The translations under genes were made by a program, and so were the position numbers. A model generated the notes under the pieces. That model saw nothing but the letters and a program-made list of their open reading frames with translations, searched no databases and was not told the origin of the DNA. DNA of 64,000 bases from an uncultured bacterium (lineage in GTDB: Bacteria; Eisenbacteria; RBG-16-71-46; JABDJR01; JAWXBZ01): positions 156,296 through 220,295 of the forward strand of contig CAZQVN010000002.1 of assembly GCA_964596775.1 (NCBI GenBank), read 5' to 3'. Positions 25,806 to 62,316 of the stretch are shown here, piece by piece. Position 1 is the first letter of the stretch. Each line of letters begins with the position of its first letter.

Positions 25806-25865
25806 ACTGCTCCTGCCTCCAGCTTGATGGTGTATTTCAATTTCGTTTCGAGGGATGGGCACCGA

Positions 25866-26849: not shown

Positions 26850-27470
26850 GTGGCGTCGGTGCCTGAAAAGACCCCAGGGGTCAAATTCGATCAGGTGTCC
26901 GATGAGGACCTGATGGACCATTGCGTCGACGGCTCCGAGCCCGCATTCAAGGAGTTGGTCAGACGTTACAAGACGAGGATAATCAACCTCGTCTACCGGT
27001 TCATCCGGGATCACCAGCGAGCCGAGGATCTGGCGCAGGAAGTCTTCGTCAGGGTCTTTCTGCATCGCGAGAGGTATCGGAAGAGCGGCAAGTTTTCAAC
27101 CTGGATATTCACGATTGCCGTGAACCTTGCGAAGAATGAGATCAGAAGGAAAGCGAGGCTCAGAAACGTGCTGAGCCTGGAAGGACTTCAGGAAATTGCG
27201 GGCTCATCCGGTTTTTTCCTGAAGGATAACAAGCCCGGAACGGACCGTCGCCTCGAGCGCGATCAACTTGGCGGGCTTGTGACCAAGGCCATCGAGAAGC
27301 TGCCCGAAAGATACCGGATGGCCCTGATTCTGCGCGATATCGAAGGCCTGTCCTATGAGGAGATCGGCGACATTCTGCAGATTCCCGGGGGAACCGTGCG
27401 TTCCAGGATCAACCGGGCCAGGCTCATGCTGAAGGAAAAGTTGAAACCCCATGTGAGGACAGGTGCATGA
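26850..27470 (+). CDS. ECF-type RNA polymerase sigma factor
   Basis: Region 2: DGSEPAFKELVRRYKTRIINLVYRFIRDHQRAEDLAQEVFVRVF. Region 4: LPERYRMALILRDIEGLSYEEIGDILQIPGGTVRSRINRAR. Start uncertain (GTG 26850, GTG 26859 or GTG 26895). Confidence 0.8.
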   Translation: MASVPEKTPGVKFDQVSDEDLMDHCVDGSEPAFKELVRRYKTRIINLVYRFIRDHQRAEDLAQEVFVRVFLHRERYRKSGKFSTWIFTIAVNLAKNEIRRKARLRNVLSLEGLQEIAGSSGFFLKDNKPGTDRRLERDQLGGLVTKAIEKLPERYRMALILRDIEGLSYEEIGDILQIPGGTVRSRINRARLMLKEKLKPHVRTGA

Positions 27471-28045
27471 TGAATTGCAACAATGTGCAGGACATCTTTT
27501 CGCTCATTCTCGAGGAAGAGGCCAGCGCGCGCGAGTTTTCCGACTTCAATAATCACCTTGCCGACTGCCCCGGGTGCCGCAGTGAATTCGAGGTTTTCAA
27601 GGTCACCAGTGACCTGGTCCGGACGATTTCTCCGATCGACCCGACCCCGGGATTCGAAGACCGTGTCCTGGCACGGATCCGGGCGGCCGGTTCAGCTCCG
27701 GCGCCTCTTGAGTTTCCGGTGGAGCGGAGCGATGAGCGCCTTTCGGGAGGATGGTTTCCACGGCTGGGTCTTGCGGCGGCGGCGGCGGTTCTCGTGGCAG
27801 TATCCTTCCTTGCGCTGCAGGGAACGAATCAGGGGCCTGGTTCCCAGATGGCCGTCCGTGAGGACCGGAGCGTGGTTACTCTGAAGGATCGGCTTCCCGA
27901 TCTGCCTGACGAGGTCGTTGACGCCCTGAACGAGGAAAGCTTTGTCCTCGACAGGATGGTCGTCCGTCCCGGTTCCGGCGAGGGGAATGCCCGGGTCGTG
28001 GCTCCGGTCGGTTATGAGAATGGTCCCGTTTACGTGGCGTTCTAG
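27467..28045 (+). CDS. Anti-sigma factor, zinc-finger (ZAS/zf-HC2) type, single-pass membrane
   Basis: ATG overlaps the sigma stop (ATGA). HLADCPGCRSEF (H-x3-C-x2-C). One TM segment LGLAAAAAVLVAVSFLAL. Periplasmic C-terminal domain. Confidence 0.7.
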   Translation: MMNCNNVQDIFSLILEEEASAREFSDFNNHLADCPGCRSEFEVFKVTSDLVRTISPIDPTPGFEDRVLARIRAAGSAPAPLEFPVERSDERLSGGWFPRLGLAAAAAVLVAVSFLALQGTNQGPGSQMAVREDRSVVTLKDRLPDLPDEVVDALNEESFVLDRMVVRPGSGEGNARVVAPVGYENGPVYVAF

Positions 28046-28048
28046 CAT

Positions 28049-29308
28049 ATGCCCTTCCTGCCTCAAATGATCCGAACTCCCGGCGTTGTCGGGATTGTTC
28101 TGGGTCTGGCCGTGCATCTCGTCTCTCTTGTTCCGGAACAGGCCCGCGGGCAGTCGGCCGGAACGGGCATCGACAATTTCGAGCGCGAAATTCTGGATGT
28201 CGTGGGCAGGGCTCGAACTTCGGTCGTCAGCATCGAGGCACTGGTGGAGCAGGATCGCGGGGCGGGCATGGGCAGATCCCAATCCGGAAAACTCCCCCCG
28301 CGAAGAATCGGTTCGGGGATTGCGATCAGCGAGGACGGCTGCATCGCAACGACCGCGTCGATCGTCGACGGCGCAACCACGATCATGGTGCGAACCCCGT
28401 CCGGCGAGACGCGAAAAGCCGGACTCGTCGGAATAGACAGGCGCACCAACATTGCCCTCATTTCCTGCCAGGCCAAGGGGATGCCTGCGGCGAGGCTGGG
28501 AGACTCCAGCCTGGCCCCGCCCGGCGCCCGGGTTGTCGTGGTGGGCAGTTATCCGGTCGCTTCGCCCCTCTGCTCCTTCGGTACGATCGTTCTGGATCGT
28601 GGGCTCGTCTGGGGTTACTCCGAGGTTGAAATGCTCCAGGTCAGCGCCCCGGCCAAGGGAGTCAACAGCGGATCCGCGGTCGTCAATGCCGAGGGGCGCG
28701 TGATCGGCATGGTGTCCGGCGTCTACGACGAATCCGTGACCGGTGGTCGACCCTCGTCTCCTCCAGGGATTTCCGGATACATTTTCCAGAATCGGGTGGC
28801 CGCGTCGCCGCACAACGACGCTTTCTTCGCGGTTCCCATCGAGAAGGTCCTGGACATTGCCGCCGAGCTGAAGGAGCGGGGACGGGTGGACCGTGGTTTC
28901 CTGGGGATCATCGTCCAGAAGGATGAGCAGGCCTCCTCCAGGGGGGGAGTCGTGGTTCGGGACATTCTTCGCGGCGGTCCGGCTTCGGTGGCGGGAATCC
29001 AGGTCGGAGATGTGATCCTTCAGTACTCCGGCCGCAATCTGTCCATCGGGGATGACCTCACGTTCCTGGTCACCGCAACCCGGCCCGGCTCGCTTGTGGG
29101 GTGTCAGATCAAGCGGGGGAACGAGCAACTCCGCCTTGTGGAAGTGGTCATCGGACGAGCCCCGAACAGCTACGCCTGGCTTCCGCGCGAACTCGACCCG
29201 TCGCTTCCGGCGGAACGGCTCTGGCCCGAAGATGCCCCGGACCTCGTGCCCGCCAATGGGCGGGCCGGCGAGTCCACCACCGGGGTCGGCAAGAAGAAGC
29301 GCCCCTGA
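28049..29308 (+). CDS. HtrA/DegP-family trypsin-fold + PDZ protein, catalytic triad apparently degenerate
   Basis: Signal/TM at N-terminus. Trypsin fold GSGIAISEDGCIATTASIV...NIALIS...KGVNSGSAVVNAEGRVIGMVSG. PDZ GFLGIIVQKDE...VAGIQVGDVILQYSGRNL. Compared with E. coli DegP from memory, the His position (TNNHVV) reads TTASIV and the Asp position (DIALIQ) reads NIALIS; Ser is retained. Confidence 0.7.
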   Translation: MPFLPQMIRTPGVVGIVLGLAVHLVSLVPEQARGQSAGTGIDNFEREILDVVGRARTSVVSIEALVEQDRGAGMGRSQSGKLPPRRIGSGIAISEDGCIATTASIVDGATTIMVRTPSGETRKAGLVGIDRRTNIALISCQAKGMPAARLGDSSLAPPGARVVVVGSYPVASPLCSFGTIVLDRGLVWGYSEVEMLQVSAPAKGVNSGSAVVNAEGRVIGMVSGVYDESVTGGRPSSPPGISGYIFQNRVAASPHNDAFFAVPIEKVLDIAAELKERGRVDRGFLGIIVQKDEQASSRGGVVVRDILRGGPASVAGIQVGDVILQYSGRNLSIGDDLTFLVTATRPGSLVGCQIKRGNEQLRLVEVVIGRAPNSYAWLPRELDPSLPAERLWPEDAPDLVPANGRAGESTTGVGKKKRP

Positions 29309-34404: not shown

Positions 34405-35040
34405 TCAGGCCTCCGGGCCGATCCGTTTCATGACGAGGGCATACTCCGCGGCCCGTGCGCGGATGTCGATAGCGGACCAGAGTCCGCTGATCACGGCCAG
34501 GCCGGACGCGCCAAGGTCGCGAACGGCAGCGGCGTTGCCTGTCGAGATTCCGCCGATTCCGACGACCGGGATTCGCGCCGTACTGCACAGGTCGCGGAAC
34601 ACCCCGTGGTCGAGCGGCGTCGCGTCGGTCTTAGTTGCCGTCGGGTACAGGGAGCCGGCCGCAGCGTAGTCGGCCCCGGACAACTCGGCCTGTTGCAGTT
34701 GCTCGATAGTCCGGGTCGAAACGCCCACGATCCAGTCGGGGTGCAGCCTGCGGACCGTGTCGACCGGAACGTCGCTCTGGCCAAGGTGCACGCCGTCGGC
34801 GCCGCCGGCGGCGGCGACATCCGGCCGGTCATTGACGAGGAGGGGAATCCGGCGGTCCCGGCAGACGGGGAGCAGCTGGCGGACGGCCAGGTACAGGGAC
34901 CGGGGTGCAATCCCCTTGCCGCGCACCTGAACCATGGTGACGCCCCCGTCGATGGCGTCGGCGACGAGCCGGGCATGAACGGGGTTTCCGGGGGCGAGGT
35001 CGACGATGGCGTAAACGGCGGGATCGAATCCGCGTTTCAT
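34405..35040 (-). CDS. thiE: Thiamine-phosphate synthase
   Basis: AVYAIVD...GVTMVQVRGKG...IPLLVNDRPDVAAAGGADGVHLGQSDV...PVVGIGGIS. Confidence 0.75.
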   Translation of the reverse strand: MKRGFDPAVYAIVDLAPGNPVHARLVADAIDGGVTMVQVRGKGIAPRSLYLAVRQLLPVCRDRRIPLLVNDRPDVAAAGGADGVHLGQSDVPVDTVRRLHPDWIVGVSTRTIEQLQQAELSGADYAAAGSLYPTATKTDATPLDHGVFRDLCSTARIPVVGIGGISTGNAAAVRDLGASGLAVISGLWSAIDIRARAAEYALVMKRIGPEA

Positions 35041-36119
35041 TTCGGAGCCCGGACAAGCAGGACAACGGCAGCCGCCAGGAACACGATATTGCCCATCCAG
35101 GCCGCCGGGTCCGGCGGAATCTGTCCCGCGTGGCCGAGCACCCGGCCGAACTGGACGAAACAGATATACGTCATGAAGATGGCGAAGGACAGTCCGAAGC
35201 CGATGGCGATGCCGCCCCGGCGCAGCCGGACCGCGAGTGGCGCCGCAAACAGGGTGGCCAGGAACACGCCCAGCGGGTAGGCAAGCTTGAGACTTCGTTC
35301 CGTGGCATAGATTGAAGTGGGACGACCGCTTTCGCGCAGTTTCCGGACATAGGTCCCGAGGTCCCGGAAGCTCATCTGGTTCTCGTCGACGTCGCCCTGG
35401 GCCAGGTCCTCGGGAGTCTCCCTGAACTCCGGAAAGGCAAGAGAGTCGAACGGCACGAGCACCTCGTCATCTCCGTAGAACGTTCGGACGACCCCGTTTC
35501 GAAAGGTCCAGGCGCCGCCGGTCCAATCCGCGATCCGCGCATCAACGCGTCGCGTGAGCCGGTTCTCCTCGAATTCCTGGACCATGACTTCCTGAAGCTG
35601 CTCGTGCCGGATGTCGAAGCGACGGACCGTGTACACGCGCCCGCCGGATCCCAGGTAGCTCAGGTTCATCTTGATTCCGAACCTGCGGGGAACTCTTCCT
35701 CGAATCTGCTCGTCGTAGATGTTCTTCCGATTCTGCTCGGCTCCCGGCAGCAGCGTCTCGGATACGGTGAACACCGCTCCACTGACGAGCAGGGCGAACA
35801 GGTAGGCCGGCAGGAAGATCCGGTAAAGGGATATCCCCGCGGTCTTCATGGCCGTGATCTCGTTGAACTTCGTCATCTGGCCGAAGGCCATGAAGGTGGC
35901 CAGGAGAATGGCCACCGGGGACATGAAGATGAAGATGTAGGGAACGCGGCTCACGTAATAGCTGGCAATCAGCCGGGCGGGAGTCCGGTTGTCCACGAAG
36001 ACGTCGATGCGCTCGAAGATGTCGAAGATGACGTAGAGCAGGATCGTACCGACCACCATGAGGATGAAAAAGCTCACGAGGTTTCGCAGCAGGTAGCGGT
36101 CCAGTTTCCGTCCGATCAT
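35037..36119 (-). CDS. lptG: LPS export ABC permease LptG (YjgP/YjgQ family)
   Basis: ATG 36119 (MIGRKLDRYLLRNLVSFFILMVVG...) overlaps the lptF stop (ATGA). 6-TM permease with a periplasmic beta-jellyroll insert. The ORF-track N-terminal extension is rejected. Confidence 0.7.
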   Translation of the reverse strand: MIGRKLDRYLLRNLVSFFILMVVGTILLYVIFDIFERIDVFVDNRTPARLIASYYVSRVPYIFIFMSPVAILLATFMAFGQMTKFNEITAMKTAGISLYRIFLPAYLFALLVSGAVFTVSETLLPGAEQNRKNIYDEQIRGRVPRRFGIKMNLSYLGSGGRVYTVRRFDIRHEQLQEVMVQEFEENRLTRRVDARIADWTGGAWTFRNGVVRTFYGDDEVLVPFDSLAFPEFRETPEDLAQGDVDENQMSFRDLGTYVRKLRESGRPTSIYATERSLKLAYPLGVFLATLFAAPLAVRLRRGGIAIGFGLSFAIFMTYICFVQFGRVLGHAGQIPPDPAAWMGNIVFLAAAVVLLVRAPK

Positions 36120-37471
36120 GGCCTGATGTCCCGCCCGCGGACCGTGTTCCAGGTCATCCACAGAGCCGGGATGGCGAGAACCACGTTGGGAGCCCACATG
36201 GCTACCGCCGGCGAGACGATGGTCCGCTCGGCAAGCTGTTCTCCACCGATGAGGAACAGGTAGTACACCAGGAAAAACCCGATCGACAGGGCGCTGGCCG
36301 CGATTCCACCCCGGCGTGCCTTCATGCCGATCGGCGCCCCGAGAAGCACGAAAACCAGGCAGGCGAACGGAATGGAGAATTTCTTGTGCACCTCGACCCG
36401 GTAGGAATTCATTCGCTTCTCCAGGTTCGTGATGTCGAGGCTGGCCATGTACAGCCGTTCCTTGTCCTGTTCGAGGATCGAAACGCGGGCGGTGTCGGCC
36501 TTCTGGCCGGCGATTCCCGCAACCGCCAGCCTGGCCCTTTCGACCAGGCCGGCCATCCCCCGGGGCGGAGGGAGCACCTTGCGCTGGAACGTCGCATAGT
36601 CCGAAAAGCCGAGACTGTCGAGGTCGGCCACAAGAAGTGATTCCCGCTGGGCATGGCTGGCTTCAAACCGCCGGATCTGGCGATTGAGTTCGGGGATGTC
36701 CATCTCGCGCTCGCTGCGCGAGTCGCGCTGCATGTCCTCGAGGACGGCATCGGCGTTGTGCAACAGGAGCGTGTGGTGCTGAAAGGCGATTCGGCGGTAC
36801 TTGTTGACGTCCCCATCGGGCGGCACTTCGTGAATCTCCCCGTCATTCAGGTCGAAACGAAGCGTGGCTCCATCCTCGGAGTAGGTGAGGTGGCCGGTTT
36901 CGGCCAGGATCGTGACCGGAATGTCGCTCTGCGAGAAGTCGTAGATCGTGATGTCCCGCATGAATCCCGTCTTGTTGTCCACGTGCCCGACGATGAGGCT
37001 GCGGTCGGGAAAATCCGTGATGAAGACCCCCTCGCGAATGCGGGCGGCCGGACTCTTTCGATTGATGGCCAGACTCAGGTTCGCAAACATGTGATTCGTG
37101 TCGGGAAGAATGTAGTTGTTGAACAGGGCGAGCAGCGTGGCCACGAACAGGGCCGCCAGAAAGACCGGACGGATGACCCGACTGAGATTGACTCCGCAGG
37201 CCCGGAAGGCGGTGATCTCGTTGTCCTGGGACAGCCTGCCGAACGTCATGAGTGATCCGACCAGCACCCCGCAGGGAACGGACAGGGCCACGATCCAGCC
37301 CAGTGCCAGAAGAAACAGCTTCAGAACGACGAGAAACGGGATTCCCTTTCCCACAAGCAGATCAAGGAAGCCGAAGAGAAACTGAAAGATGAGGACGAAG
37401 GTGGAAACGCCGAACCCGAGGAAGAAGGGAAACAGACATTCCCGAAGGACGTACCGCTCCAGTAATTGCAT
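36116..37471 (-). CDS. lptF: LPS export ABC permease LptF (YjgP/YjgQ family)
   Basis: MQLLERYVLRECLFPFFLGFGVSTFVLIF... Paralogue arranged in tandem with lptG. Confidence 0.7.
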   Translation of the reverse strand: MQLLERYVLRECLFPFFLGFGVSTFVLIFQFLFGFLDLLVGKGIPFLVVLKLFLLALGWIVALSVPCGVLVGSLMTFGRLSQDNEITAFRACGVNLSRVIRPVFLAALFVATLLALFNNYILPDTNHMFANLSLAINRKSPAARIREGVFITDFPDRSLIVGHVDNKTGFMRDITIYDFSQSDIPVTILAETGHLTYSEDGATLRFDLNDGEIHEVPPDGDVNKYRRIAFQHHTLLLHNADAVLEDMQRDSRSEREMDIPELNRQIRRFEASHAQRESLLVADLDSLGFSDYATFQRKVLPPPRGMAGLVERARLAVAGIAGQKADTARVSILEQDKERLYMASLDITNLEKRMNSYRVEVHKKFSIPFACLVFVLLGAPIGMKARRGGIAASALSIGFFLVYYLFLIGGEQLAERTIVSPAVAMWAPNVVLAIPALWMTWNTVRGRDIRP

Positions 37472-37718
37472 AGTTTTATGAAACTTGCCGCTTTCTCTCA
37501 GGTTCCACGCTACGTTGCCCGGTCTGCCCGCCCGCCCGCTGACTGGAGGGTCGCCGCCTTCGGTCCGCCCGGTCCGACAGCCCAGACATCCGAGCGGCTT
37601 TCCGCAGTATAGGGGTTTGCCGGTCGATTCAACCAGACGGGCCCGCGCGAGTTTGACACCGAAGCTCGGCTACTGCTAACTTTCAGGTTCATAGTCACTT
37701 ACGGACTTTGCTGTTCCG

Positions 37719-40700
37719 TTGTTCCAGGTGTTCATCCGAAGAGGGAATTTCTTGAAGCACTGGTGCGGACTCGCCGTCCTGCTGAGCCTTGTCCTCGGAT
37801 CGGCCCTCCCTGCCTCCGCGGAGGAGAGCATCGGGCTCTGGCGCCCCATGGACTGGCGCCCGGAAGATCTCTGGAGTTCCTTCTGGAGTTCGCGGTGGGA
37901 GGAGGGGATCACGACATCCCGCCGCCTGTCCCTGAGCGAGGTTCGCGGCGGTGTGCAGAGCCAGGTCGTCTACGACCCGCTGCTGGGCTACATAACGGCC
38001 AGCCTGCGCCAGCGTGACGTGGAACTGGCTCCGGCCCGGCTGTTCACGACCGAACAGTACGCCGCTGAGGCCGCACGCCTCGAGTTTTACCGCAGCTGGA
38101 AAGTCGAGACCCTGAGAACGCTTCACGGAGGCACGGCCGACCCCAACCGACGCATTCAGGGTGGGCTGGTCAATGTGGACCTTCCGTTCGAACTGCCCGG
38201 TTTTGCCGCCAAGATCTTCGGGGACGGTGCTCCGAATCTTCGCGTGTCCGGAAGCGAGCGGATTTCGATCGGCGGCACGTCCTCCTGGCGCGTCAACGAA
38301 CTGCAGACGGAAGGGCGCCGCCGGTCCAGGTTTCCCACCCTGGAGATGCGGCAGGAACTCAACGTCCGGCTGAACGGCACGATCGGCGACAAGCTGCACA
38401 TCGACATCAGCCAGAACTCCGAAGCGTCGATTTCGCTGGAAAACCAGATCCGCATCTATTACCAGGGTTACGAGGACGACGTCATTCAGCGCGTCGATCT
38501 GGGAAACACGAACCTGTCGTTGCCCCGCACGACCCAGTACATTTCCTACTCTTCGCGGCAGGAAGGTCTTTTCGGCATCAAGATGACCGGCCGCTTCGCG
38601 GACTGGGACTTTTCGATGATCGCCAGCAAGCAGGAAGGCGCTTCAGGCGCCGCCACGTTCACGGGGGGGACTTCGGAAAGCCGGCTCGGTGGATCGGACG
38701 GCCGGATCTACGATCGGGAGTTCGAGCGTCGCAAGTACTTTTTTCTGTTTGACCCGGACGAGGAAACCCTGCCGCCCAACGGAGTGATCCGCGGCGAGGA
38801 TCTCGTGGTCTGGGTGGACACGACAAATCCCGAGGGGGACCGCCGGAGCGGCAAGGACATCGCCCGGGGCATGCTGTCGCTCCGGGGAAACGGCACGACT
38901 CCCCCGGGCCTCTCGGTCAAGTCGATTGTCAAGTGGACGCCCAACGACGACTATTTTTTCATCACGTCGGACCGGACGGACTATCCGTATCTCGTGATGC
39001 GGAACTCCATCTCGGAGGATTACAGCGTCGGTGTGTCCTACCGGGTCCGCGACCGGAACACGGGCAACGTCCTGCAGGACGTGGGCAACTTCTTCACGCG
39101 GACGCCGGCCGATTCCATCCTCCAGGTCAAGATGATCAAGCCTGGGCGGTCGCTGCTGCTCGACGACAATCTTACCGTCGGCGCGTGGGCGGCCACGCGC
39201 AAGCTCGAACTCAAGAACGTGTACAACCTTGGAGCAAGGAACATCGACGGAGAATCGCTCGCCCTCTCCATCCGCAAGGAGGGGGGGCTCGATCCTCCGG
39301 ACGACAACGGCGTTTACTACCTGGAGATTCTCGGACTGGACCTGATCAACAACCAGACGGGCCTGCCGGGGGCCGATGGAAAGGTGGATCCGCGCTACAT
39401 CGATCTGGAAAACGGATTGCTCTACTTTCCGGATCTCAGGCCGTTCGATCCCAGCCTGGTCGATCTTCAGGGGCAGCCCGGCACCCGGGCACCGAGCCGC
39501 GACGTACCCCGCAGGAGGGCGCTCGGCTACCGGGCGATTCCCGATGCGTCGTTTCCGTCCGGATTTCGCTTCGAGCCCCTGTCCCCGGACTCCGCCAGGG
39601 ACATAACGAACCCGCTCATCTACGACCGCCGCGAGTTGCGGGACGACTATCGGAGGTACTTCATCACGGGGACGTTCCGGGCGTTTCAGACCGACATCAG
39701 CCTGAACCAGCCGGGAATCCTGGAAAACTCGGAAACCGTCCGCATGGACGGCGAAGTGCTGTCGCGCGGAGTCGACTACACGATTTCCTACGATACCGGC
39801 CAGGTGCGGTTGATCTCGGACAAGGCCACGAATCCGAACGGGAACCTCCAGATCAGCTACTCCTACACACCCTTGTTCTCGCGCGGTGACAAGAGCCTGA
39901 TCGGATTCTCGACCACATATGGAGGATCCTCGAACTGGGCCTTTTCCACGACGCTGCTCTATGAAAGCAAGGGCGTGCCGGAGCGGCGACCCCGTCTCCA
40001 GCAGGAACCGTCCCGGACGATTCTCGGCGATGTGAGCGGCGCGATCCGGTTGACTCCGTGGTTTCTCACCGAGATGACTGATGCCCTGCCGCTCGTGAGC
40101 ACCAGCGCCCCGTCGCGGCTGACCCTGACCGGGGCGATGGGCCTGTCCGTCCCCAACCCCAACACCAAGGGAGACGTGTACCTGGACGACATGGAAGGAG
40201 CGGCCCAGGTGACCGGAGCGAGCATGGCCCGCGAAAGCTGGCGCTTCTCCAGCCGGCCGGCCACGGATGCGCTGAAGCCGTTTTCCGAGGACGCCCTCCG
40301 CGACGCGGACCGGCTGGACGGTCTGTGGTACTCGATCCAGCGCCTGATCCAGGCGAAGGATCTTGCTCCGAACCTAGACCTGACCGAGGGGGACGACTAC
40401 ATCAGCGGCCTGGGGGTCATTCTCGGTCCGAACCCCTTCGCCGAGGCCCGCCCGTGGTTCGGGATCACCCAGCCGCTCTCGGACAACGGTCTTCGCCTGA
40501 CCGAGGCTCAATACATCGAGGTCTGGGTCAACGACTTCAATCGCTTTCACGGCGCGAATGCCGTCGCGGGGCAGGGGAAGGAGATCCGGATCAACCTGGG
40601 AAGCGTCAGCGAAGACGCGATCTGGGATCCGAATACGCCACCGGCCGCCGCGGACGGGATGCTGAACTCCGAGGACGTGAATCGGGACGGTCAGAGAACG

Positions 40701-43700
40701 CCGGACGAGGATACGGGGCTGGATGGCCTCGTGGATTCCCGGGAGACGGGTCGCGAACCGCTCCCGGGGGATCCGTGCCCGGTGGCGATTGCCGGGGATC
40801 CCGCCGGAGACAACTTCAGTTTCGACTCGAGCGGCGACGAGTACGTCGGGACGATGCAGGACCGGTTCTGCAGGTTTCGTCATGTGAACGGAACGGAGAA
40901 GAATCTCCGCCTGGACAGCGAGGATTTCAACGGAAACGAGAATCTCGACGTCATCAACGACTACTTCGAGTACACCCTGCCCCTGGACAGCGACGAGTTC
41001 ACGGTCGTGGACGTGGCCCGCGACTACCCCAACTCCGAAGCCGCCCGCGACCCGGAAAACGGATGGCGCTTGCTGCGCATTCCGCTGAACCATCCTTCCG
41101 TCCGCCAGGTCGGCTTCCCCAGCCTGGACACGGTGCGTCACCTCCGGGTCTGGTTCAACGGATTCTCGGAAATGGCGGAATTCCAGATCGCATCGATCGA
41201 GGTCATCGGAAACCGCTGGGAACGCCAGCCGATCCGGGCGTTCAACGAAAAGGACGTGCCCGACTCGGTCCAGTTCGCCGCCGGTAAGGTCTTCAACGTG
41301 GCGGTGGTCAACAACAAGCAGAATGCCGATGTCTATGCACCTCCCTTTCCGGTGCGCAGGCTGGATCGCGTGACCGAGCGGGAACAGAGCCTGGCCCTGG
41401 TCTTCGAGAACATCGACCCGGGTGAGCAGGTTTCCGCGTTCCGGTCGCTCCTGCGCGAGGAGGACTACACGCTGTACCAGACCCTTGCCTACTATGTGCG
41501 CCGTCGCCCGGGCGTCCAGGCCGACAATCTCGAGTTCTTCCTGAGATTCAGCTCGACCGCCAACTCGGATGTACAGAACGCCTACGAGATATCCCTCCGG
41601 CTCGACAAGTCCGACGAGTGGCAGACGATCGAGCTTCCGCTGGCCGACATCAGCCGGCTCAAGATCGACGTTCCGGACTCGCTTCTCGGTCTGCCGAGCC
41701 GCTTGAACGCGGAGTCGGATCTCCCCGGGGGGCTGCATGTCCGCATTTTCGGAAAGCCATCCTTCAGCCAGGTGCGCCGCCTCCAGGTCGGCGTCCGCAA
41801 CGTCGGGGTCGTCCCTGTCCAGACCGGGGAAGTGTGGTTCAACGAGTTGAGGCTGGGCTCGGTGCGCCGCGACGTCGGCGTGGCGGCGGGCGGTAGCGTG
41901 GACATGTCGCTCGGCGACTTTGCTTCGCTGCGCACGTCGCTGGATCAGCGGGACGCGGACTTTCTCGCGCTGGGGCAGACGCGGGGCAGCGGATTGACGA
42001 GCCGTACCCTGAGCTTCGGAACGACCGTCAACCTCGACAAGCTGATGCCTTCATTGAGCCTTTCCCTGCCCGCCGGATACGATGTACGTCGCACGCGCAA
42101 CACACCGAAGTTCCGCGCCAACGACGACATCATTTTCGAGGGGGGCGACGGTGGTTACAACATCACGGAATCGGGTTCCAACAGTATCCGCCTGTCGGCG
42201 CGGCGCATATCGACGCAGGGAACACCATGGATCCTGCGGAACACGCTGGACGCGGTGGCCCTGAACCTCAGCTACAGCCGGGCCTTCAACAGCAGCACGA
42301 CCGGGGTGGATTCCACGCTGACGGCCACCGGGACGGCCTCCTATGCGCTGCGGATGGGCAACTGGCTGGCGCTTCCGCTCCCCGGGAGAAGCCGTTTTAC
42401 TCCGCTGCCGAACCTGAGCGTCTCCTACGCGGCGGGGTACAACGAGAACGTGTCCTACTCCAGGAATGCCCTGCGCCCCACGGAGCTGGTCAGTCCGCGG
42501 AAAACGACCACGCGGACCTCGGGGCTTCAGTTCCAGTCCGACTTCCGGCCGGTCTCCCCGGTCACCTACAGCGTTTCGAGTCAGCGCGATCTCGTCAAGG
42601 ACCGCTTCGCGCGGTTTCAGGTCGGTGAAACGAACTACCGACCCAGTCTGGTCATCGGCGGCGTGGACCTCGGCCGGGAAATCAGCCGCTCGGAACGCCT
42701 GTCGGTGAGCCAGTCGTTTTCCTTCACAAGCTTTATCCGGCCGCGGGTTTCGTGGACCGGGGAGTACCGCGAGAATCACAGCCCGGACCTGACGACCCCG
42801 TCGGATCTGCAGAATGCCGATCAGGTCAATCCCGATCTCAAGAGTTTCCAGAACAGCAACACGACCACGGTCGGAATGACGCTGCCCATGGCGCAGCTGT
42901 TCCGGAAACTCCAGGGGGTCGGTGGCCCGCAGCGGAATCGGCCGGTCCGGGGGCAGGACACGCCCCCGGCGCAGCATCCCCTTCCGCCTCCCGCGCCACC
43001 CCAGCCGCAGGTTGCTCCGCCGCAGCCGGACAGCCTGGGTGTGCCGGAGGATGAACCCGGTGATGAATCGCGGCGGCCCGGCGGGCCGGATGGTGGCGCG
43101 GGTACCGAGGCTTTCGACCCGGGTGCTGTGTTCGGCACGGCCGGAAACCCGACCGGGTCGGATCTTCCTCCGGAGGGAATAACAGTCCCGCCATCCGTCG
43201 GGCCCGAAGATGTCCTCAAGGCGGATGCCGACGGATCGACGCAGGGAGGGCAGCCGGTAGACCTCGGTGCCACGGGTCCACCGACGGATGTCGAAGCGGT
43301 CGACGCGGACAGCCTGGCGAAGCCCGCGCCGGTGGACGACAAGAGCGACCCCCGGAAAGCCTCCGTCAAGAAGCGGAAGAAAAACCGGCCGCGCGGCGGA
43401 ATCGGCGGAACATCGCGCGATGAACCGGAGGAAGAAGAGGTCATTGCGGAGGAACCGAATAAGGAGAAGGAGGCGCCCGCGCCGGTCAGGACGGAAGAGC
43501 CGGTCCGCAAGGCCGAGCCCCCTCCTGCGCCGAAGCCCGCCGTGCCGGGCCCGAACCTGTTCCAGTTTCTCTTCCGCGACCTCTTTGCGGTCGGGGACAT
43601 CCGGACGAACATCAGCCGCTCCAACAGCAACAGCATCTCCCGCGTTCACGGTTCGCCCTCTCCCGAGTTCCGGCTCGGGCTGAGCAATGAGTTCGGCGAT

Positions 43701-44465
43701 GTCCAGCGCGCGGACAACTCTTCGGAAACGCATTCGAACTCCACGAGCGCCAGCGCCAACAGCACGATTTCCGTTCTGCGCGACTTTTCCGTGGATGCGG
43801 CATTCCAGTGGACGGAACAGGAAACAGACAACAACCGGTCGCTGTCCCGGTCCGAATCCACCACCTGGCCCGGCCTGCGGATGAACCTCGGAGCCCTGGA
43901 AAAGAAGCTCGGCCTCAAGAGGATCTTCAATTCGTTCAGTGCCACGAGCAACTACGAGCGGCGCACGGAAAAGCGCGGGACCGGCACGAATCCGCGCGAG
44001 TCGGAAACGACGACCACCGCCTGGAGGCCGCTGCTCCAGTTCGACGCCGGCCTGAAGAACGGCTGGCGCACGACGTTTTCCACGGACCGCTCGTCGACGA
44101 TCAGCACGTCGAATTCGGCGGGCGGCGTTCAGGCGGGCGTCACGACAACCCGCAATCAACAGGCCTTTCGTGCCGGGCTGGCGAAGTCCTTTTCGGTGGA
44201 CCGCGGGCCGGGGAAACCCAAGAGCTCCGTGGATCTCACGTTCGACGTCAACTACAACCGGGACGAAAGCATCAACGAGTATTCGACGCAGAGTCCTGTG
44301 GAGAACCGGTCCGACAATTTCCAGGGACGGCTTTCCAGCAGCTACCGTTTCACCTCGACGGTCAGCGGTTCCATGCAGTTGACGGTCGGCCAGCGGCGCG
44401 ATCTGGACGCGGATCTGACCGATCGTTCCATCGGACTGCAGGCCACCGCGGCGATCAGTTTCTGA
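37719..44465 (+). CDS. Giant (2248 aa) outer-membrane beta-barrel protein, SprA/Sov-like T9SS translocon candidate
   Basis: Signal peptide CGLAVLLSLVLGSALPASA. Alternative start TTG 37746 with GAGGG SD gives MKHWCGLAVLL.... Size class and Ser/Thr/Asn/Gly-rich beta-strand composition typical of SprA (about 2,400 aa). C-terminal ...GLQATAAISF beta-signal. Same locus as T9SS cargo and a cargo-processing cyclase. Assignment by size, context and composition only, not by alignment. Confidence 0.5.
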   Translation: MFQVFIRRGNFLKHWCGLAVLLSLVLGSALPASAEESIGLWRPMDWRPEDLWSSFWSSRWEEGITTSRRLSLSEVRGGVQSQVVYDPLLGYITASLRQRDVELAPARLFTTEQYAAEAARLEFYRSWKVETLRTLHGGTADPNRRIQGGLVNVDLPFELPGFAAKIFGDGAPNLRVSGSERISIGGTSSWRVNELQTEGRRRSRFPTLEMRQELNVRLNGTIGDKLHIDISQNSEASISLENQIRIYYQGYEDDVIQRVDLGNTNLSLPRTTQYISYSSRQEGLFGIKMTGRFADWDFSMIASKQEGASGAATFTGGTSESRLGGSDGRIYDREFERRKYFFLFDPDEETLPPNGVIRGEDLVVWVDTTNPEGDRRSGKDIARGMLSLRGNGTTPPGLSVKSIVKWTPNDDYFFITSDRTDYPYLVMRNSISEDYSVGVSYRVRDRNTGNVLQDVGNFFTRTPADSILQVKMIKPGRSLLLDDNLTVGAWAATRKLELKNVYNLGARNIDGESLALSIRKEGGLDPPDDNGVYYLEILGLDLINNQTGLPGADGKVDPRYIDLENGLLYFPDLRPFDPSLVDLQGQPGTRAPSRDVPRRRALGYRAIPDASFPSGFRFEPLSPDSARDITNPLIYDRRELRDDYRRYFITGTFRAFQTDISLNQPGILENSETVRMDGEVLSRGVDYTISYDTGQVRLISDKATNPNGNLQISYSYTPLFSRGDKSLIGFSTTYGGSSNWAFSTTLLYESKGVPERRPRLQQEPSRTILGDVSGAIRLTPWFLTEMTDALPLVSTSAPSRLTLTGAMGLSVPNPNTKGDVYLDDMEGAAQVTGASMARESWRFSSRPATDALKPFSEDALRDADRLDGLWYSIQRLIQAKDLAPNLDLTEGDDYISGLGVILGPNPFAEARPWFGITQPLSDNGLRLTEAQYIEVWVNDFNRFHGANAVAGQGKEIRINLGSVSEDAIWDPNTPPAAADGMLNSEDVNRDGQRTPDEDTGLDGLVDSRETGREPLPGDPCPVAIAGDPAGDNFSFDSSGDEYVGTMQDRFCRFRHVNGTEKNLRLDSEDFNGNENLDVINDYFEYTLPLDSDEFTVVDVARDYPNSEAARDPENGWRLLRIPLNHPSVRQVGFPSLDTVRHLRVWFNGFSEMAEFQIASIEVIGNRWERQPIRAFNEKDVPDSVQFAAGKVFNVAVVNNKQNADVYAPPFPVRRLDRVTEREQSLALVFENIDPGEQVSAFRSLLREEDYTLYQTLAYYVRRRPGVQADNLEFFLRFSSTANSDVQNAYEISLRLDKSDEWQTIELPLADISRLKIDVPDSLLGLPSRLNAESDLPGGLHVRIFGKPSFSQVRRLQVGVRNVGVVPVQTGEVWFNELRLGSVRRDVGVAAGGSVDMSLGDFASLRTSLDQRDADFLALGQTRGSGLTSRTLSFGTTVNLDKLMPSLSLSLPAGYDVRRTRNTPKFRANDDIIFEGGDGGYNITESGSNSIRLSARRISTQGTPWILRNTLDAVALNLSYSRAFNSSTTGVDSTLTATGTASYALRMGNWLALPLPGRSRFTPLPNLSVSYAAGYNENVSYSRNALRPTELVSPRKTTTRTSGLQFQSDFRPVSPVTYSVSSQRDLVKDRFARFQVGETNYRPSLVIGGVDLGREISRSERLSVSQSFSFTSFIRPRVSWTGEYRENHSPDLTTPSDLQNADQVNPDLKSFQNSNTTTVGMTLPMAQLFRKLQGVGGPQRNRPVRGQDTPPAQHPLPPPAPPQPQVAPPQPDSLGVPEDEPGDESRRPGGPDGGAGTEAFDPGAVFGTAGNPTGSDLPPEGITVPPSVGPEDVLKADADGSTQGGQPVDLGATGPPTDVEAVDADSLAKPAPVDDKSDPRKASVKKRKKNRPRGGIGGTSRDEPEEEEVIAEEPNKEKEAPAPVRTEEPVRKAEPPPAPKPAVPGPNLFQFLFRDLFAVGDIRTNISRSNSNSISRVHGSPSPEFRLGLSNEFGDVQRADNSSETHSNSTSASANSTISVLRDFSVDAAFQWTEQETDNNRSLSRSESTTWPGLRMNLGALEKKLGLKRIFNSFSATSNYERRTEKRGTGTNPRESETTTTAWRPLLQFDAGLKNGWRTTFSTDRSSTISTSNSAGGVQAGVTTTRNQQAFRAGLAKSFSVDRGPGKPKSSVDLTFDVNYNRDESINEYSTQSPVENRSDNFQGRLSSSYRFTSTVSGSMQLTVGQRRDLDADLTDRSIGLQATAAISF

Positions 44466-45403
44466 TGCCCGGCGTCTTCCGAGATCGCCCGCGCCGGCGG
44501 GGGCGATGCCATGCTGTCGTCTTCCTGGCGGTCCTTGCGCTGCTCGCTTCGGCCTGCGCCGCCGGAGCCGGAGAGCGGCCGGACTTCGACGGAGCGCGCG
44601 CCTATGCCGACGTCCTGCGCCAGTGCGACTTCGGGCCGCGCAATCCCGGCTCGGAAGGACACGCCCGCTGCCTGTCGTTCCTGGAGACGCGCCTGAAGAA
44701 GCTGGGCGCCGCGGTCGTCCGGCAACCGTTCAAGTATGCCCTTCCGGGCGGAAAACCGATCGCCATGACGAACCTGGTCGCGAGTTTCTCACCGGAGAAT
44801 CGCCGCCGGGTTCTGCTTGCGGCGCATTGGGATACGCGGCCGTGGGCGGACCTGGACGCGGATGTCACGAAACGCGATCTCCCGATCCTGGGGGCCAACG
44901 ACGGGGCCTCGGGGGTGGCGGTCCTTCTGGAGGTCGCCCGGCTGGTCGCCGGCAAGAAACCCGATTTCGGCGTGGATATCGTTCTCTTCGACGGGGAGGA
45001 TCTCGGGACGGCGGCCAATCCGGAGGGGTACTTCAGGGGTTCGAGGGAGTTTGCCGGGCGCTTCCGGGGCCCGGTTCCGCTTTACGCGATCCTGCTGGAC
45101 ATGGTCGGAGACGAGGATCTTCTCTTCTACAAGGAGGGGTACTCGGCTCAGGCGGCCCCAGGAACTCTGGACTGGCTCTGGAAGGGGGGAATGGAGGTCG
45201 CTCCGGCCCATTTCGTCGACAAGATCGGCTATTACGTAGAGGACGACCACTTGAGCCTTCACGCGGTGGGAATCCCGGCCGTGGACCTGATCGATTTCCA
45301 CTACCCCCACTGGCATACCCATCAGGACACCCCCGAGCACGTTTCGGAGGCCAGTCTCCAGGTCGTCGGGGACGTCCTGATGCGCCTCCTGTATCCGGAT
45401 TGA
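44465..45403 (+). CDS. M28-family zinc peptidase fold / glutaminyl-peptide cyclotransferase-like lipoprotein
   Basis: ATG 44465 overlaps the SprA-like stop (TGATG). Signal + lipobox-like AVVFLAVLALLASAC. M28/QC metal-ligand pattern LLAAHWDTRP...GANDGASGVAVLLEVAR...VLFDGEDLG...HYPHWHTHQD. Confidence 0.55.
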   Translation: MPGVFRDRPRRRGRCHAVVFLAVLALLASACAAGAGERPDFDGARAYADVLRQCDFGPRNPGSEGHARCLSFLETRLKKLGAAVVRQPFKYALPGGKPIAMTNLVASFSPENRRRVLLAAHWDTRPWADLDADVTKRDLPILGANDGASGVAVLLEVARLVAGKKPDFGVDIVLFDGEDLGTAANPEGYFRGSREFAGRFRGPVPLYAILLDMVGDEDLLFYKEGYSAQAAPGTLDWLWKGGMEVAPAHFVDKIGYYVEDDHLSLHAVGIPAVDLIDFHYPHWHTHQDTPEHVSEASLQVVGDVLMRLLYPD

Positions 45404-45471
45404 CCGTTACCCGCCTCTTCTGAGAAACTCCTTGCGCCCCTCGGACGTGTTGGTGTAGGTTTGCACGCGCG

Positions 45472-50097: not shown

Positions 50098-50394
50098 ATG
50101 TCCATGTTCCTGGGCATCGTCACCATGGAAGTCTTCATTCCGCACAGTCAATCCCTCAAGGCCCGGAGATCCGTCGTGAACGGCATCAAGGCCAGGCTGA
50201 AGCAATTGAACGCGTCGGTCGCGGAAATCGGCGAGCTGGACCTCTGGCAGCGCTCGACCCTCGGAGTGGCGATGATCGCCAACGAACCCGGATTTCTCGA
50301 GAGGGCCGTCCAGGAAGTCCGCGAGATCGTCGAGCGGGACCATCGTGCCCAGGTCGTGGCTTTCGACTGGGATGTTTCCCCCGTGCAGGAGTGA
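50098..50394 (+). CDS. DUF503 (YlxP-like) protein
   Basis: 98 aa between infB and rbfA, the conserved position. ...SLKARRSVVNGIKARLKQLNASVAEIGELDLWQRSTLGVAMIAN... Confidence 0.65.
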   Translation: MSMFLGIVTMEVFIPHSQSLKARRSVVNGIKARLKQLNASVAEIGELDLWQRSTLGVAMIANEPGFLERAVQEVREIVERDHRAQVVAFDWDVSPVQE

Positions 50395-60145: not shown

Positions 60146-60146
60146 C

Positions 60147-61505: not shown

Positions 61506-61508
61506 AGC

Positions 61509-62294: not shown

Positions 62295-62316
62295 CGGAAC
62301 AGTTTCCGCAACCCCG

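What the first reader, a model, noticed from the sequence alone, without database searches (positions are those of the whole stretch)
37719..45403. Giant SprA/Sov-like outer-membrane protein translationally coupled to a glutaminyl-cyclase-like lipoprotein
A 2,248-aa beta-barrel-type protein (signal peptide, C-terminal ...AAISF) is the size class of the T9SS translocon SprA/Sov. It ends in TGATG with the start of an M28/glutaminyl-cyclase-fold lipoprotein. In Porphyromonas gingivalis, a glutaminyl cyclase pyroglutamylates the new N-termini of T9SS cargo, but it is not encoded next to the translocon there. A T9SS cargo (CTD protein at 4767..9611) lies in the same window. If the coupling is real it is an unusual hard-wired translocon/cargo-processing pair.
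Basis: partly seen in the sequence, partly recalled or inferred. Interest (0 to 1): 0.55.

Follow-up and report, generated by a model that had tools for sequence, protein, structure and literature searches.

The report
T9SS translocon gene fused-by-overlap to glutaminyl cyclase

Summary
ORF 37719..44465 (+), whose likely true start is TTG 37752 (2,237 aa), is a SprA/Sov translocon: TIGR04189 scores 530 bits against a cutoff of 200, and it matches PDB 6H3I at E=9e-43. Its TGA stop overlaps the ATG (TGATG) of a 312-aa M28 protein. That protein is a bacteroidal-type (type II) glutaminyl cyclase, not an aminopeptidase. Its best PDB hits are verified QCs (1e-58 to 5e-48), it has the QC-diagnostic D-G, E-D and W-H motifs, and the top 50 fold matches of its AF2 model are all QCs.

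The organism is Eisenbacteria-like. The pair is not a one-off. The same 1-nt overlap occurs in Eisenbacteria-like relatives. sprA lies directly upstream of QC on the same strand in 42 of 66 informative loci, which carry labels of Zixibacteria, KSB1, Calditrichota, Marinimicrobia and Zhuqueibacter, while the flanking genes vary. Bacteroidota/Ignavibacteriota-labelled loci and the Poribacteria/Armatimonadota loci lack it. I found no paper describing this linkage.

The "cargo-processing" part is unproven. The only CTD cargo in the window and SprA itself do not start with Gln; two other exported proteins do. QCs also occur outside T9SS lineages. The most likely reading is a bicistronic operon that co-produces the translocon and a general periplasmic N-terminal capping enzyme. 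Interest is moderate.

The parts
37472..37751 (.). Divergent intergenic region between lptF (-) and sprA (+). It is the presumed promoter region. It contains a perfect TTGACA at 37653-37658 but no consensus -10 element.
   Evidence: Sequence read. The sigma-70 scan found no full promoter.
37752..44465 (+). sprA/sov, the T9SS outer-membrane translocon. It is 2,237 aa from TTG 37752; the longest ORF starts at TTG 37719 (2,248 aa).
   Evidence: TIGR04189 530 bits against a cutoff of 200. PF14349 SprA_N E=3e-28. PDB 6H3I E=9e-43 over aa 643-1471, and aa 154-330 aligns collinearly with FjSprA 128-298. Orthologues are present in 36+ loci.
37752..37820 (+). Sec/SPI signal peptide of SprA (MKHWCGLAVLLSLVLGSALPASA | EESIG...).
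   Evidence: Sequence. The crude signal-peptide predictor places the site after ASA.
42915..43550 (+). 212-aa low-complexity insert in the C-terminal part of SprA, 20% Pro and 13% Gly, with no aromatic residues across most of it. It sits in a loop that is far shorter in the non-Eisenbacteria homologues compared: 141-169 residues against 351-413 across the aligned span that contains it.
   Evidence: Composition and alignment with L001, L085, L087, L013 and L064.
44463..44467 (+). TGATG: the sprA stop codon overlaps the qc start codon by one base, a translational-coupling signature.
   Evidence: The overlap is conserved in L001, L085, L086, L021, L045 and L064.
44465..45403 (+). qc: a type II (bacteroidal-type) glutaminyl cyclase with an M28 fold, 312 aa.
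   Evidence: PF04389 E=4e-31. PDB matches: BtQC 4FUU/7D1D 1e-58, TfQC 6QRO 8e-55, PgQC 6QQL 5e-48, against true aminopeptidases at or above 6e-11. AF2 model pLDDT 91.7. The top 50 Foldseek PDB hits are all QCs, the best with TM 0.85/0.92 and rmsd 1.5 A.
44465..44557 (+). Signal peptide with a lipobox-like LLASA|C31. It predicts a lipid-anchored periplasmic enzyme in this genome.
   Evidence: It is not conserved: L001, L086 and others have SPI-type signals.
44900..45316 (+). Active-site span containing D146-G147 (44900-44905), E178-D179 (44996-45001), D212 (45098-45100) and W283-H284 (45311-45316).
   Evidence: These positions are invariant in 30 homologues. They match the PgQC hallmarks D149-G150, E182-D183 and W298-H299 (PMC7948796).
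45471..45502 (+). Terminator-like hairpin (8-bp stem, 5 GC pairs) followed by a T-rich tail. It lies between the qc stop (45403) and the rimP start (45523).
35037..37471 (-). lptG and lptF (LPS export permeases), divergently transcribed from sprA. This neighbourhood is conserved in part of the relatives.
   Evidence: PF03739 at 265 and 311 bits. The same divergent arrangement occurs in 13 loci including the window.
4767..9617 (-). C25 peptidase / FG-GAP / type A CTD protein (1,616 aa). It is a T9SS-dependent protein in the same window, either cargo or a PorU-like protein.
   Evidence: PF01364 209 bits and PF13860 35 bits. TIGR04183 scores 20.5 bits, just under its cutoff of 23, and NF033707 PorU gives a partial match of 101 bits. 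The custom CTD HMM scores 109 bits. CTD homologues are named T9SS type A sorting domain.

Best explanation
sprA and qc form a two-gene operon. It is transcribed from the lptF-sprA divergent region and probably ends at the hairpin before rimP.

SprA is exported by Sec, loses a 23-aa signal peptide and is inserted into the outer membrane as the T9SS translocon for CTD-bearing proteins. Ribosomes finishing the 2,237-codon sprA message terminate on UGA and can reinitiate on the overlapping AUG. QC synthesis is therefore tied to SprA synthesis.

QC is exported, here probably as a lipid-anchored protein. In the periplasm it uses a single Zn site (D146, D179, H284; catalytic E178) to cyclise N-terminal Gln, exposed by signal peptidase I, into pyroglutamate. 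This blocks aminopeptidase attack, as shown for its P. gingivalis orthologue.

Its substrates are probably exported envelope proteins in general, including T9SS and outer-membrane proteins, rather than cargo only. The conserved linkage reflects co-production of the translocon and the capping enzyme.

Shown: the gene identities, the overlap, and conservation of the pair. Inferred: co-transcription, reinitiation, enzyme activity, localisation and substrate range.
For: - SprA identity.
- QC identity and QC-specific residues: with hallmarks from PMC7948796.
- Overlap and its conservation.
- A terminator-like hairpin follows qc.
- The pair is kept in 42 of 66 informative loci. The downstream neighbours fall into 19 different clusters and the upstream neighbours into 7. 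The chance of this ordered adjacency in one 3,000-gene genome is about 1.7e-4.
- Two of five predicted SPI substrates in the window start with Gln: the FadL/PorV-like OMP (APA|QEG) and HtrA (ARG|QSAG).
- Gln is the commonest predicted +1 residue in QC-bearing FCB loci: 17/65 and 10/36.
- A PorZ-like CTD protein near sprA-qc in Calditrichota, KSB1 and Marinimicrobia keeps +1 Gln while its flanking residues vary.
- In P. gingivalis, QC is essential, inner-membrane-associated and protective against aminopeptidases. 86% of T9SS components and cargo there start with Gln (PMC10653852).
Against: - The only CTD protein in the window (+1 probably G) and SprA (+1 E; D in L001) do not follow the Q-rule.
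- The window holds only five SPI substrates. The chance of two Gln among five is p=0.02-0.07 against a 5-9% background.
- My crude signal-peptide predictor gave 3/22 Gln in an E. coli control, so the enrichment in FCB loci (27/101) is not significant by the same method (Fisher p=0.15).
- There are no transcript or activity data.
- No Shine-Dalgarno motif precedes the qc ATG. This is compatible with coupling but is not proof of it.
Confidence: 0.62

Rival explanations
1. QC is a dedicated accessory of the T9SS translocon in these phyla. It would be physically associated with SprA at the periplasmic face, by analogy with the peptidyl-prolyl isomerase subunit of F. johnsoniae SprA, and would cap cargo or T9SS-component N-termini on their way to the pore.
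For: - The tight gene pair, often overlapping, is maintained across loci labelled as at least six phyla while its flanks change.
- In Calditrichota the pair sits in a wider T9SS cluster with a PorZ-like protein and two PorV/PorQ-family proteins.
- F. johnsoniae SprA carries an enzyme subunit (PPI) of unknown function (PMC10994853).
- Bochtler et al. noted the phylogenetic co-occurrence of T9SS and high Q-values (PMC5837995).
- CTD proteins in adjacency loci often start with Gln (8 of 13 by manual reading, many of them orthologues).
Against: - QCs of the same family occur in lineages without sprA nearby (Poribacteria, Armatimonadota) and have been solved from a planctomycete and an acidobacterium.
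- In P. gingivalis, QC is inner-membrane-associated and acts on about 77% of all SPI substrates (PMC10653852).
- The window's cargo and SprA lack Gln at +1.
- The signal type of QC varies (lipoprotein or soluble) even among close relatives, which does not fit a fixed docking geometry.
- No interaction was tested.
Confidence: 0.15
2. The adjacency is inherited synteny inside an envelope-biogenesis neighbourhood (lptFG, murB, sprA, qc). It carries no specific functional meaning beyond loose co-regulation, and the 1-nt overlap is ordinary operon compaction.
For: - lptG-lptF or a murB-like gene lies upstream in 24 of 32 loci, so part of the neighbourhood is also inherited.
- 1-4 nt stop/start overlaps are very common in bacterial operons (established knowledge).
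- The intergenic gap ranges from -22 to about +260 nt across phyla.
- Housekeeping genes (prmA, ppx, rimP-nusA) are interleaved with the pair.
Against: - The pair survives where both flanks differ, for example murB-sprA-qc-comEA in L087 against lptF|sprA-qc-rimP in the window.
- It spans lineages whose QCs are only 43-50% identical.
- Conservation at that depth usually implies selection on co-expression.
Confidence: 0.18
3. The downstream protein is an M28 aminopeptidase, or another M28-type processing enzyme such as a GPAA1-like transamidase helper for CTD/A-LPS attachment, rather than a glutaminyl cyclase.
For: - Pfam places it only in Peptidase_M28, NCBIfam has no QC model, and sources name relatives 'M28 family peptidase'.
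- GPAA1 of the GPI transamidase is an M28 relative of QCs (PMC4111754, PMC7522609).
Against: - The diagnostic residues are of QC type: D-G not D-N/D, E-D not E-E, W-H not Y-H.
- Scores are 167-202 bits to verified QCs against 35-45 bits to true aminopeptidases.
- All top 50 fold matches are QCs.
Confidence: 0.05

Closest known systems
SprA (Flavobacterium johnsoniae, PDB 6H3I/8GL6) and Sov (Porphyromonas gingivalis), the T9SS outer-membrane translocon
   Same: - It belongs to the same family: TIGR04189 equivalog above cutoff, and collinear similarity in the N-terminal and central regions.
- It is in the same size class (>2,000 aa).
- It has a Sec signal peptide and a C-terminal aromatic residue.
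- A CTD-bearing protein is present in the same window.
   Different: - Pairwise similarity is low (149 bits to 6H3I), and the last ~750 aa are not detectable pairwise.
- It carries a 212-aa Pro/Gly-rich insert seen at this length only in the Eisenbacteria-like SprAs compared.
- It comes from an Eisenbacteria-like organism, not Bacteroidota.
- It is followed by qc, with a 1-nt overlap.
- In F. johnsoniae the enzyme known to sit on the translocon is a PPIase, not a QC.
Bacteroidal type II glutaminyl cyclases: PgQC (PG_2157, 6QQL), TfQC (6QRO), BtQC (4FUU/7D1D)
   Same: - 33-39% identity in the structural alignments.
- The same fold (TM up to 0.92 on the target, rmsd 1.5 A).
- The same single-Zn ligand set, with the bacteroidal-specific Asp after the catalytic Glu, D-G and W-H.
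- An N-terminal export signal with a lipobox, as in PgQC.
   Different: - The genomic context differs: PgQC heads an operon with an Fe-S protein and hemG, whereas here qc is the distal gene of a sprA operon.
- The host phylum is one for which the Q-rule has not been assessed in the papers read here.
- The lipobox is not conserved in the nearest relatives.
- Activity is untested.
The Bacteroidetes Q-rule system (signal peptidase I exposes Gln; QC makes pyroglutamate)
   Same: The QC orthologue is present. Some exported proteins in the window and in related loci start with Gln after the predicted cleavage site.
   Different: - In the window only 2 of 5 SPI substrates start with Gln, against about 71% in Bacteroidetes.
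- SprA and the CTD protein do not follow the rule.
- The genome-wide Q-value is unknown.

Membership tests
SprA/Sov T9SS translocon (TIGR04189) | Equivalog HMM score above the curated cutoff | tested here: met
   530 bits against a cutoff of 200, E=1.4e-158. PF14349 SprA_N scores 99 bits against a cutoff of 27.
SprA/Sov T9SS translocon (TIGR04189) | Collinear homology to the structurally solved SprA | tested here: met
   6H3I at E=9e-43, aa 643-1471 aligned to 672-1606. aa 154-330 aligns to 128-298. The C-terminal 748 aa is not detected pairwise, but it is conserved with SprA homologues of other FCB phyla.
SprA/Sov T9SS translocon (TIGR04189) | Protein longer than 2,000 aa with a Sec signal peptide and an OMP-type C-terminal aromatic residue | tested here: met
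   2,237-2,248 aa, signal ...ALPASA|EES, C-terminus ...AAISF.
SprA/Sov T9SS translocon (TIGR04189) | 36-strand capped barrel with a lateral opening | not testable with these tools
   The protein exceeds the 1,200-aa limit of the structure predictor.
SprA/Sov T9SS translocon (TIGR04189) | Co-occurrence with other T9SS parts and CTD cargo in the genome | tested here: inconclusive
   The window holds a C25/CTD protein and a weak PorV/FadL/BamG-like OMP. No gldK/L/M/N is in the 64 kb, and the rest of the genome was not available.
Type II (bacteroidal/animal-type) glutaminyl cyclase | M28 alpha/beta fold closest to solved QCs | tested here: met
   AF2 pLDDT 91.7. The top 50 Foldseek PDB hits are all QCs. 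phmmer to BtQC, TfQC and PgQC gives 1e-58 to 5e-48.
Type II (bacteroidal/animal-type) glutaminyl cyclase | Zn ligands Asp, Asp (bacteroidal-specific, following the catalytic Glu) and His | tested here: met
   D146, E178-D179 and H284 are invariant in 30 homologues. The criterion comes from PMC7948796.
Type II (bacteroidal/animal-type) glutaminyl cyclase | Gly after the first Zn-ligand Asp (Asn/Asp in aminopeptidases), and Trp before the ligand His (Tyr in aminopeptidases) | tested here: met
   D146-G147 and W283-H284. The criterion comes from PMC7948796.
Type II (bacteroidal/animal-type) glutaminyl cyclase | Gln-cyclising activity with a single bound zinc | not testable with these tools
   This needs an enzyme assay and metal analysis.
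Type II (bacteroidal/animal-type) glutaminyl cyclase | Export to the periplasm | tested here: met
   The N-terminal signal has a lipobox-like LLASA|C31. Relatives have SPI-type signals.
Q-rule system (Bacteroidetes) | The majority of SPI substrates have Gln at +1 | tested here: inconclusive
   2 of 5 in the window. 27/101 in QC-bearing FCB loci against 3/22 in an E. coli control with the same crude predictor, p=0.15.
M28 di-zinc aminopeptidase (rival filing) | E-E catalytic/ligand pair, Asp-Asn/Asp cis-peptide and Tyr-His | tested here: not met
   The protein has E-D, D-G and W-H instead. It scores only 35-45 bits to the solved aminopeptidases 2EK8 and 6HC6.

The most novel reading that the evidence does not exclude
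In the deep-branching FCB phyla (Eisenbacteria, Zixibacteria, KSB1, Calditrichota, Marinimicrobia, Zhuqueibacterota), glutaminyl cyclase is an ancestral, dedicated accessory of the type IX translocon. It would be co-made with SprA and possibly docked on it, as the PPIase is in Flavobacterium. The genome-wide Bacteroidetes Q-rule would then have evolved later from this T9SS-linked capping function, once the two genes were uncoupled.
Probability: 0.13. Interest if true: 0.75.

Novelty: new variant of a known kind. Interest (0 to 1): 0.45.

Why it matters
Both genes belong to well-known families, so the genes themselves are not new. What appears to be undescribed is their conserved operonic linkage, often with overlapping stop and start codons, in loci labelled as at least six FCB candidate phyla. 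I found no mention of it in the library searched, including the two Q-rule papers and T9SS reviews.

The Q-rule authors noted a striking phylogenetic co-occurrence of T9SS and pyroglutamate capping. They then argued against a mechanistic link, from P. gingivalis experiments. Gene linkage at this evolutionary depth is independent evidence that the two functions are selected to be co-expressed.

This makes the question testable outside P. gingivalis, for example in cultured Caldithrix. It also suggests that pyroglutamate capping of exported proteins extends beyond Bacteroidetes.

In practical terms, relatives of this gene are named 'M28 family peptidase' in NCBI records. Given the QC-type residues and fold, genes in this position would be better annotated as glutaminyl cyclase.

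Tried and rejected
- Looking up the window's own QC in the contig index found no record, so the rest of the 252-kb contig could not be read.
- A protein search with the 100-aa CTD alone returned only short fragments (88-173 aa). It confirmed the domain type but gave no N-termini for a cargo Q-test.
- My first gene model, self-trained on long ORFs, picked antisense ORFs in this 63% GC DNA, including one opposite qc. I replaced it with a model seeded on homology-supported genes.
The stricter version still misplaces some sites.
- The E. coli control for that predictor was too small, at 22 proteins. A fourth region added almost no secreted proteins. The Q-enrichment claim is therefore left as suggestive only.
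- Searching PDB with the C-terminal 748 aa of SprA gave nothing.
- The sigma-70 promoter scan found no promoter upstream of sprA.
- The paper on the QC-specific hydrogen-bond network in M28 enzymes is not in the library.
- I considered and set aside three readings:
  - An aminopeptidase: the diagnostic residues and scores argue against it.
  - A GPAA1-like transamidase helper for CTD attachment: there is no evidence for it, and the protein is an orthologue of verified QCs.
  - Frameshift or read-through producing a SprA-QC fusion: qc has its own export signal.
Full report
**1. Observation**

The window is about 63% GC throughout. An ORF of 2,248 codons runs from TTG 37719 to TGA 44463-44465 on the + strand.

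The more probable start is TTG 37752. It has an AGAGGG motif 6 nt upstream. From there the N-terminus, MKHWCGLAVLLSLVLGSALPASA|EES, has the length and shape of the signal peptides of orthologues. The protein ends ...AAISF.

The stop and the next ATG overlap as TGATG, with the ATG at 44465. That ATG is the only in-frame start that retains the signal peptide of the 312-aa downstream protein (44465..45403). The signal ends in a lipobox-like LLASA|C31.

**2. Identity of the large protein**

- It matches the NCBIfam equivalog TIGR04189 ('T9SS outer membrane translocon Sov/SprA') at 530 bits against a cutoff of 200.
- It matches Pfam SprA_N at 99 bits.
- It matches the solved F. johnsoniae SprA (6H3I) at E=9e-43 over aa 643-1471.
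- The N-terminal part aligns collinearly, aa 154-330 to FjSprA 128-298.
- The last 748 aa give no pairwise PDB hit. However, the final ~300 aa align with SprA homologues from other FCB phyla.
- Between these regions lies a 212-aa Pro/Gly-rich low-complexity insert (42915..43550). The two Eisenbacteria-like SprAs compared are equally long or longer there, and the three homologues from other lineages are far shorter.

The 36-strand barrel could not be modelled because the protein is too long for the predictor.

**3. Identity of the small protein**

Pfam sees only Peptidase_M28, and NCBIfam has no specific model. Several lines place it among glutaminyl cyclases.

- Against PDB sequences the best matches are bacterial type II glutaminyl cyclases with demonstrated activity or reannotated as such. 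BtQC 4FUU/7D1D scores 1e-58, TfQC 6QRO 8e-55 and PgQC 6QQL 5e-48. Real aminopeptidases score at or above 6e-11.
- Taudte et al. (PMC7948796) list the features that separate bacteroidal QCs from di-zinc aminopeptidases:
  - Zn ligands Asp149, Asp183 and His299, with Asp183 replacing the Glu of aminopeptidases and human QC.
  - Gly after Asp149, where aminopeptidases have Asn or Asp.
  - Trp298 before His299, where aminopeptidases have Tyr.
- The window protein has D146-G147, E178-D179 and W283-H284. All are invariant in an alignment of 30 homologues.
- An AlphaFold2 model built on that alignment has mean pLDDT 91.7.
- The top 50 Foldseek matches in PDB are all glutaminyl cyclases. The best is BtQC, with TM 0.85/0.92 and rmsd 1.5 A.

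The aminopeptidase reading is therefore rejected.

**4. Organism and context**

The closest named homologues of the QC are from Candidatus Eisenbacteria, followed by Zixibacteria, KSB1 and Calditrichota.

A homology-seeded gene model gives 54 genes in the window.
- lptG and lptF lie divergently upstream of sprA.
- Downstream, after a terminator-like hairpin at 45471-45492, comes rimP-nusA-infB-DUF503-rbfA-truB-ribF-rpsO-pnp.
- The window also holds a 1,616-aa C25 peptidase with FG-GAP repeats and a type A CTD.
- It holds a weak FadL/PorV/BamG-like outer-membrane protein.
- No gldK/L/M/N genes are present in these 64 kb.

**5. Conservation of the pair**

*Eisenbacteria-like relatives.* A MAG annotated as Eisenbacteria, whose QC is 65% identical (GCA_034440375, L001), has lptG-lptF | sprA (2,295 aa) - qc - rimP-nusA..., with the same 1-nt overlap. 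Two further metagenomic contigs of unlabelled origin show the same overlap: L085, and L086 with a QC 54% identical.

*Scan of species-representative genomes.* I scanned with a QC profile and obtained 80 loci. tblastn and ORF tracing show a SprA ORF of about 1,950-2,190 aa directly upstream on the same strand in a large share of them. The intergenic distances run from -22 to about +260 nt, and many are under 50 nt.

*Counts.* Counting only loci with enough upstream sequence, 42 of 66 have the pair.
- The loci with the pair are labelled Zixibacteria, KSB1, Calditrichota/Caldithrix, Marinimicrobia and Candidatus Zhuqueibacter. Some are unnamed or evidently mislabelled MAGs.
- The loci without it fall mostly into two groups on a QC tree. 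One is a Bacteroidota/Ignavibacteriota group. The other is a Poribacteria/Armatimonadota group.

*Flanks.* The flanking genes vary.
- The first downstream neighbour falls into 19 clusters among 37 loci.
- The upstream neighbour falls into 7 clusters among 32 loci. lptF accounts for 13 and a murB-like gene for 11.
- L087 (murB-sprA-qc-comEA...) shares neither flank with the window.

*Overlaps.* Overlapping stop/start (TGATG or TAATG) recurs in L021, L045 and L064 in addition to the Eisenbacteria-like group.

*Wider cluster.* In a Calditrichaceae locus the pair is followed, after prmA and ppx, by a PorZ-like beta-propeller/CTD protein and two PorV/PorQ-family proteins.

For a single 3,000-gene genome, the chance of this ordered, same-strand adjacency is about 1.7e-4.

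**6. What the literature says**

- In P. gingivalis, QC (PG_2157) is the first gene of a three-gene operon with an Fe-S protein and hemG. It is therefore not next to sov. It is essential and inner-membrane-associated, and pyroglutamate protects exported proteins from aminopeptidases. 77% of all SPI substrates and 86% of T9SS components and cargo start with Gln (PMC10653852).
[quoted passage not shown] They report a continuum of Q-values (2-77%) elsewhere. [quoted passage not shown]
- Neither paper mentions a sov/sprA-QC gene linkage.
- Three further full-text searches combining QC, T9SS, SprA, M28 and the candidate phyla found nothing on it.
- The F. johnsoniae translocon contains a peptidyl-prolyl isomerase subunit of unknown function. 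This is a precedent for an enzyme attached to SprA (PMC10994853).

**7. Does QC act on T9SS cargo here?**

In the window I find five likely SPI substrates.

| Protein | Predicted site and mature start | Gln at +1 |
|---|---|---|
| FadL/PorV-like OMP | APA\|QEG | yes |
| HtrA | ARG\|QSAG | yes |
| SprA | ASA\|EES | no |
| C25/CTD protein | probably ALG\|GEP | no |
| DUF3108 protein | +1 S | no |

Two of five is suggestive at best (p=0.02-0.07). The two T9SS-related proteins do not follow the rule.

Across the fetched loci, a crude and deliberately Q-blind signal-peptide predictor puts Gln at +1 in 17/65 proteins in loci with the pair and 10/36 in loci without it. Gln is the most frequent residue in both sets. 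The same predictor gives 3/22 on 150 kb of E. coli, so the difference is not significant (p=0.15).

Among 31 CTD-bearing ORFs read by eye, about half start with Gln. An orthologous PorZ-like CTD protein in six Calditrichota, KSB1 and Marinimicrobia loci keeps Gln at +1 while its flanking residues vary.

In several lineages QC itself has an SPI signal followed by Gln, so it would be its own substrate. The lipobox is seen in the window but not in its nearest relatives.

QCs of this family also occur where no sprA is nearby, and they have been solved from a planctomycete and an acidobacterium. QC function is therefore not restricted to T9SS.

**8. Interpretation**

The best-supported reading is a bicistronic sprA-qc operon. 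In it, translation of the cyclase is coupled to termination of the very long translocon ORF. The cyclase acts as a periplasmic N-terminal capping enzyme for exported proteins in general, including outer-membrane and T9SS proteins.

The deep conservation of the pair argues for selection on co-expression. It does not by itself show a physical or cargo-specific link. The rivals, with the evidence and refuting results for each, are given in the structured fields:
- a dedicated translocon accessory;
- neutral inherited synteny;
- a non-QC M28 enzyme.

**9. Novelty and score**

Both proteins are members of known families. An annotation pipeline using TIGR04189 should recognise the large one as SprA/Sov, since it scores well above the cutoff. 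NCBI records name relatives of the small one 'M28 family peptidase'.

The conserved translocon-cyclase operon in loci labelled as non-Bacteroidota FCB phyla appears undescribed in the literature I could search. It bears on an explicitly discussed open point, the relation between T9SS and the Q-rule. I rate it a new variant of a known kind, with moderate interest (0.45).

Noticed in passing
window 42915..43550 (+), inside sprA: A 212-aa Pro/Gly/Ala/Glu-rich low-complexity insert with almost no aromatic residues. The two Eisenbacteria-like SprAs compared (L001, L085) are even longer across the same aligned span and include Lys/Glu/Arg-rich stretches. The three homologues from other lineages have 141-169 residues across that span, against 351 in the window. 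Its topology and role are unknown.
   Followed up: partly
window 4767..9617 (-): A 1,616-aa protein with a gingipain/PorU-type C25 peptidase domain, FG-GAP repeats and a type A T9SS C-terminal domain. It partially matches the PorU sortase model, far below the cutoff. It could be cargo or a divergent PorU-like sortase. Its predicted mature N-terminus has no Gln.
   Followed up: partly
window 24405..26471 (-): A FadL/PorV/BamG-like outer-membrane protein (mature N-terminus QEG...) lies next to a 201-aa lipoprotein that contains a CXXCH haem-binding motif (CFDCH).
   Followed up: no
window 26850..29308 (+): An ECF sigma factor, a putative anti-sigma factor and an HtrA/DegS-like protease in a row. 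The protease has Gln at its predicted +1 position (ARG|QSAG).
   Followed up: no
L017 10941..17366; similar in L015, L033, L040, L053, L064: In Calditrichota, KSB1 and Marinimicrobia loci, sprA-qc is followed within 3-6 kb by a ~490-aa beta-propeller protein with a CTD (PorZ-like). L017 adds two PorV/PorQ-family proteins (the only locus where this was checked), interleaved with prmA and ppx. The PorZ-like protein keeps Gln at +1 in all six loci.
   Followed up: partly
L006, L011, L021, L040, L064 (QC N-termini); window 44465..44557: The export signal of QC varies. It is lipobox-like in the window. Close relatives (L001, L086) have an SPI-type signal. Several other lineages have an SPI-type signal followed directly by Gln, so there QC would be its own substrate.
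   Followed up: partly
window 35037..37471 (-); L001, L005, L011, L012, L017, L022, L025, L035, L040, L048, L053, L085: The LPS-export permease genes lptG-lptF lie divergently next to sprA in 13 loci, including ones labelled Eisenbacteria, KSB1, Calditrichaceae and Zhuqueibacter. This is a second conserved neighbourhood feature that links LPS export and T9SS genes.
   Followed up: partly
L084 4182..9998: In one Eisenbacteria-like contig (ENA, 218 kb), sprA is split into at least three ORFs, and infB and pnp are also fragmented. This looks like indel errors in the assembly rather than pseudogenes.
   Followed up: no
window 50098..50394 (+): A 98-aa DUF503 gene sits between infB and rbfA. It is at the same place in the Eisenbacteria-like relatives (L001, L084, L085).
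   Followed up: no
window 59309..64000 (+): An exopolysaccharide export locus begins here. It includes a Wza-like lipoprotein resembling the PEP-CTERM/XrtA export protein (below cutoff), unannotated membrane proteins that might be chain-length determinants, and a possible glycosyltransferase (none of these three was scanned).
   Followed up: no
L004, L006, L011, L012, L025, L054 (record titles): Several species-representative MAGs that carry the FCB-type QC, and in most cases sprA-qc, are titled Acidobacteriota, Actinomycetota, Cytophagia or Deferribacteres. These are probably mis-binned or mislabelled records, so the phylum counts taken from titles are approximate.
   Followed up: no
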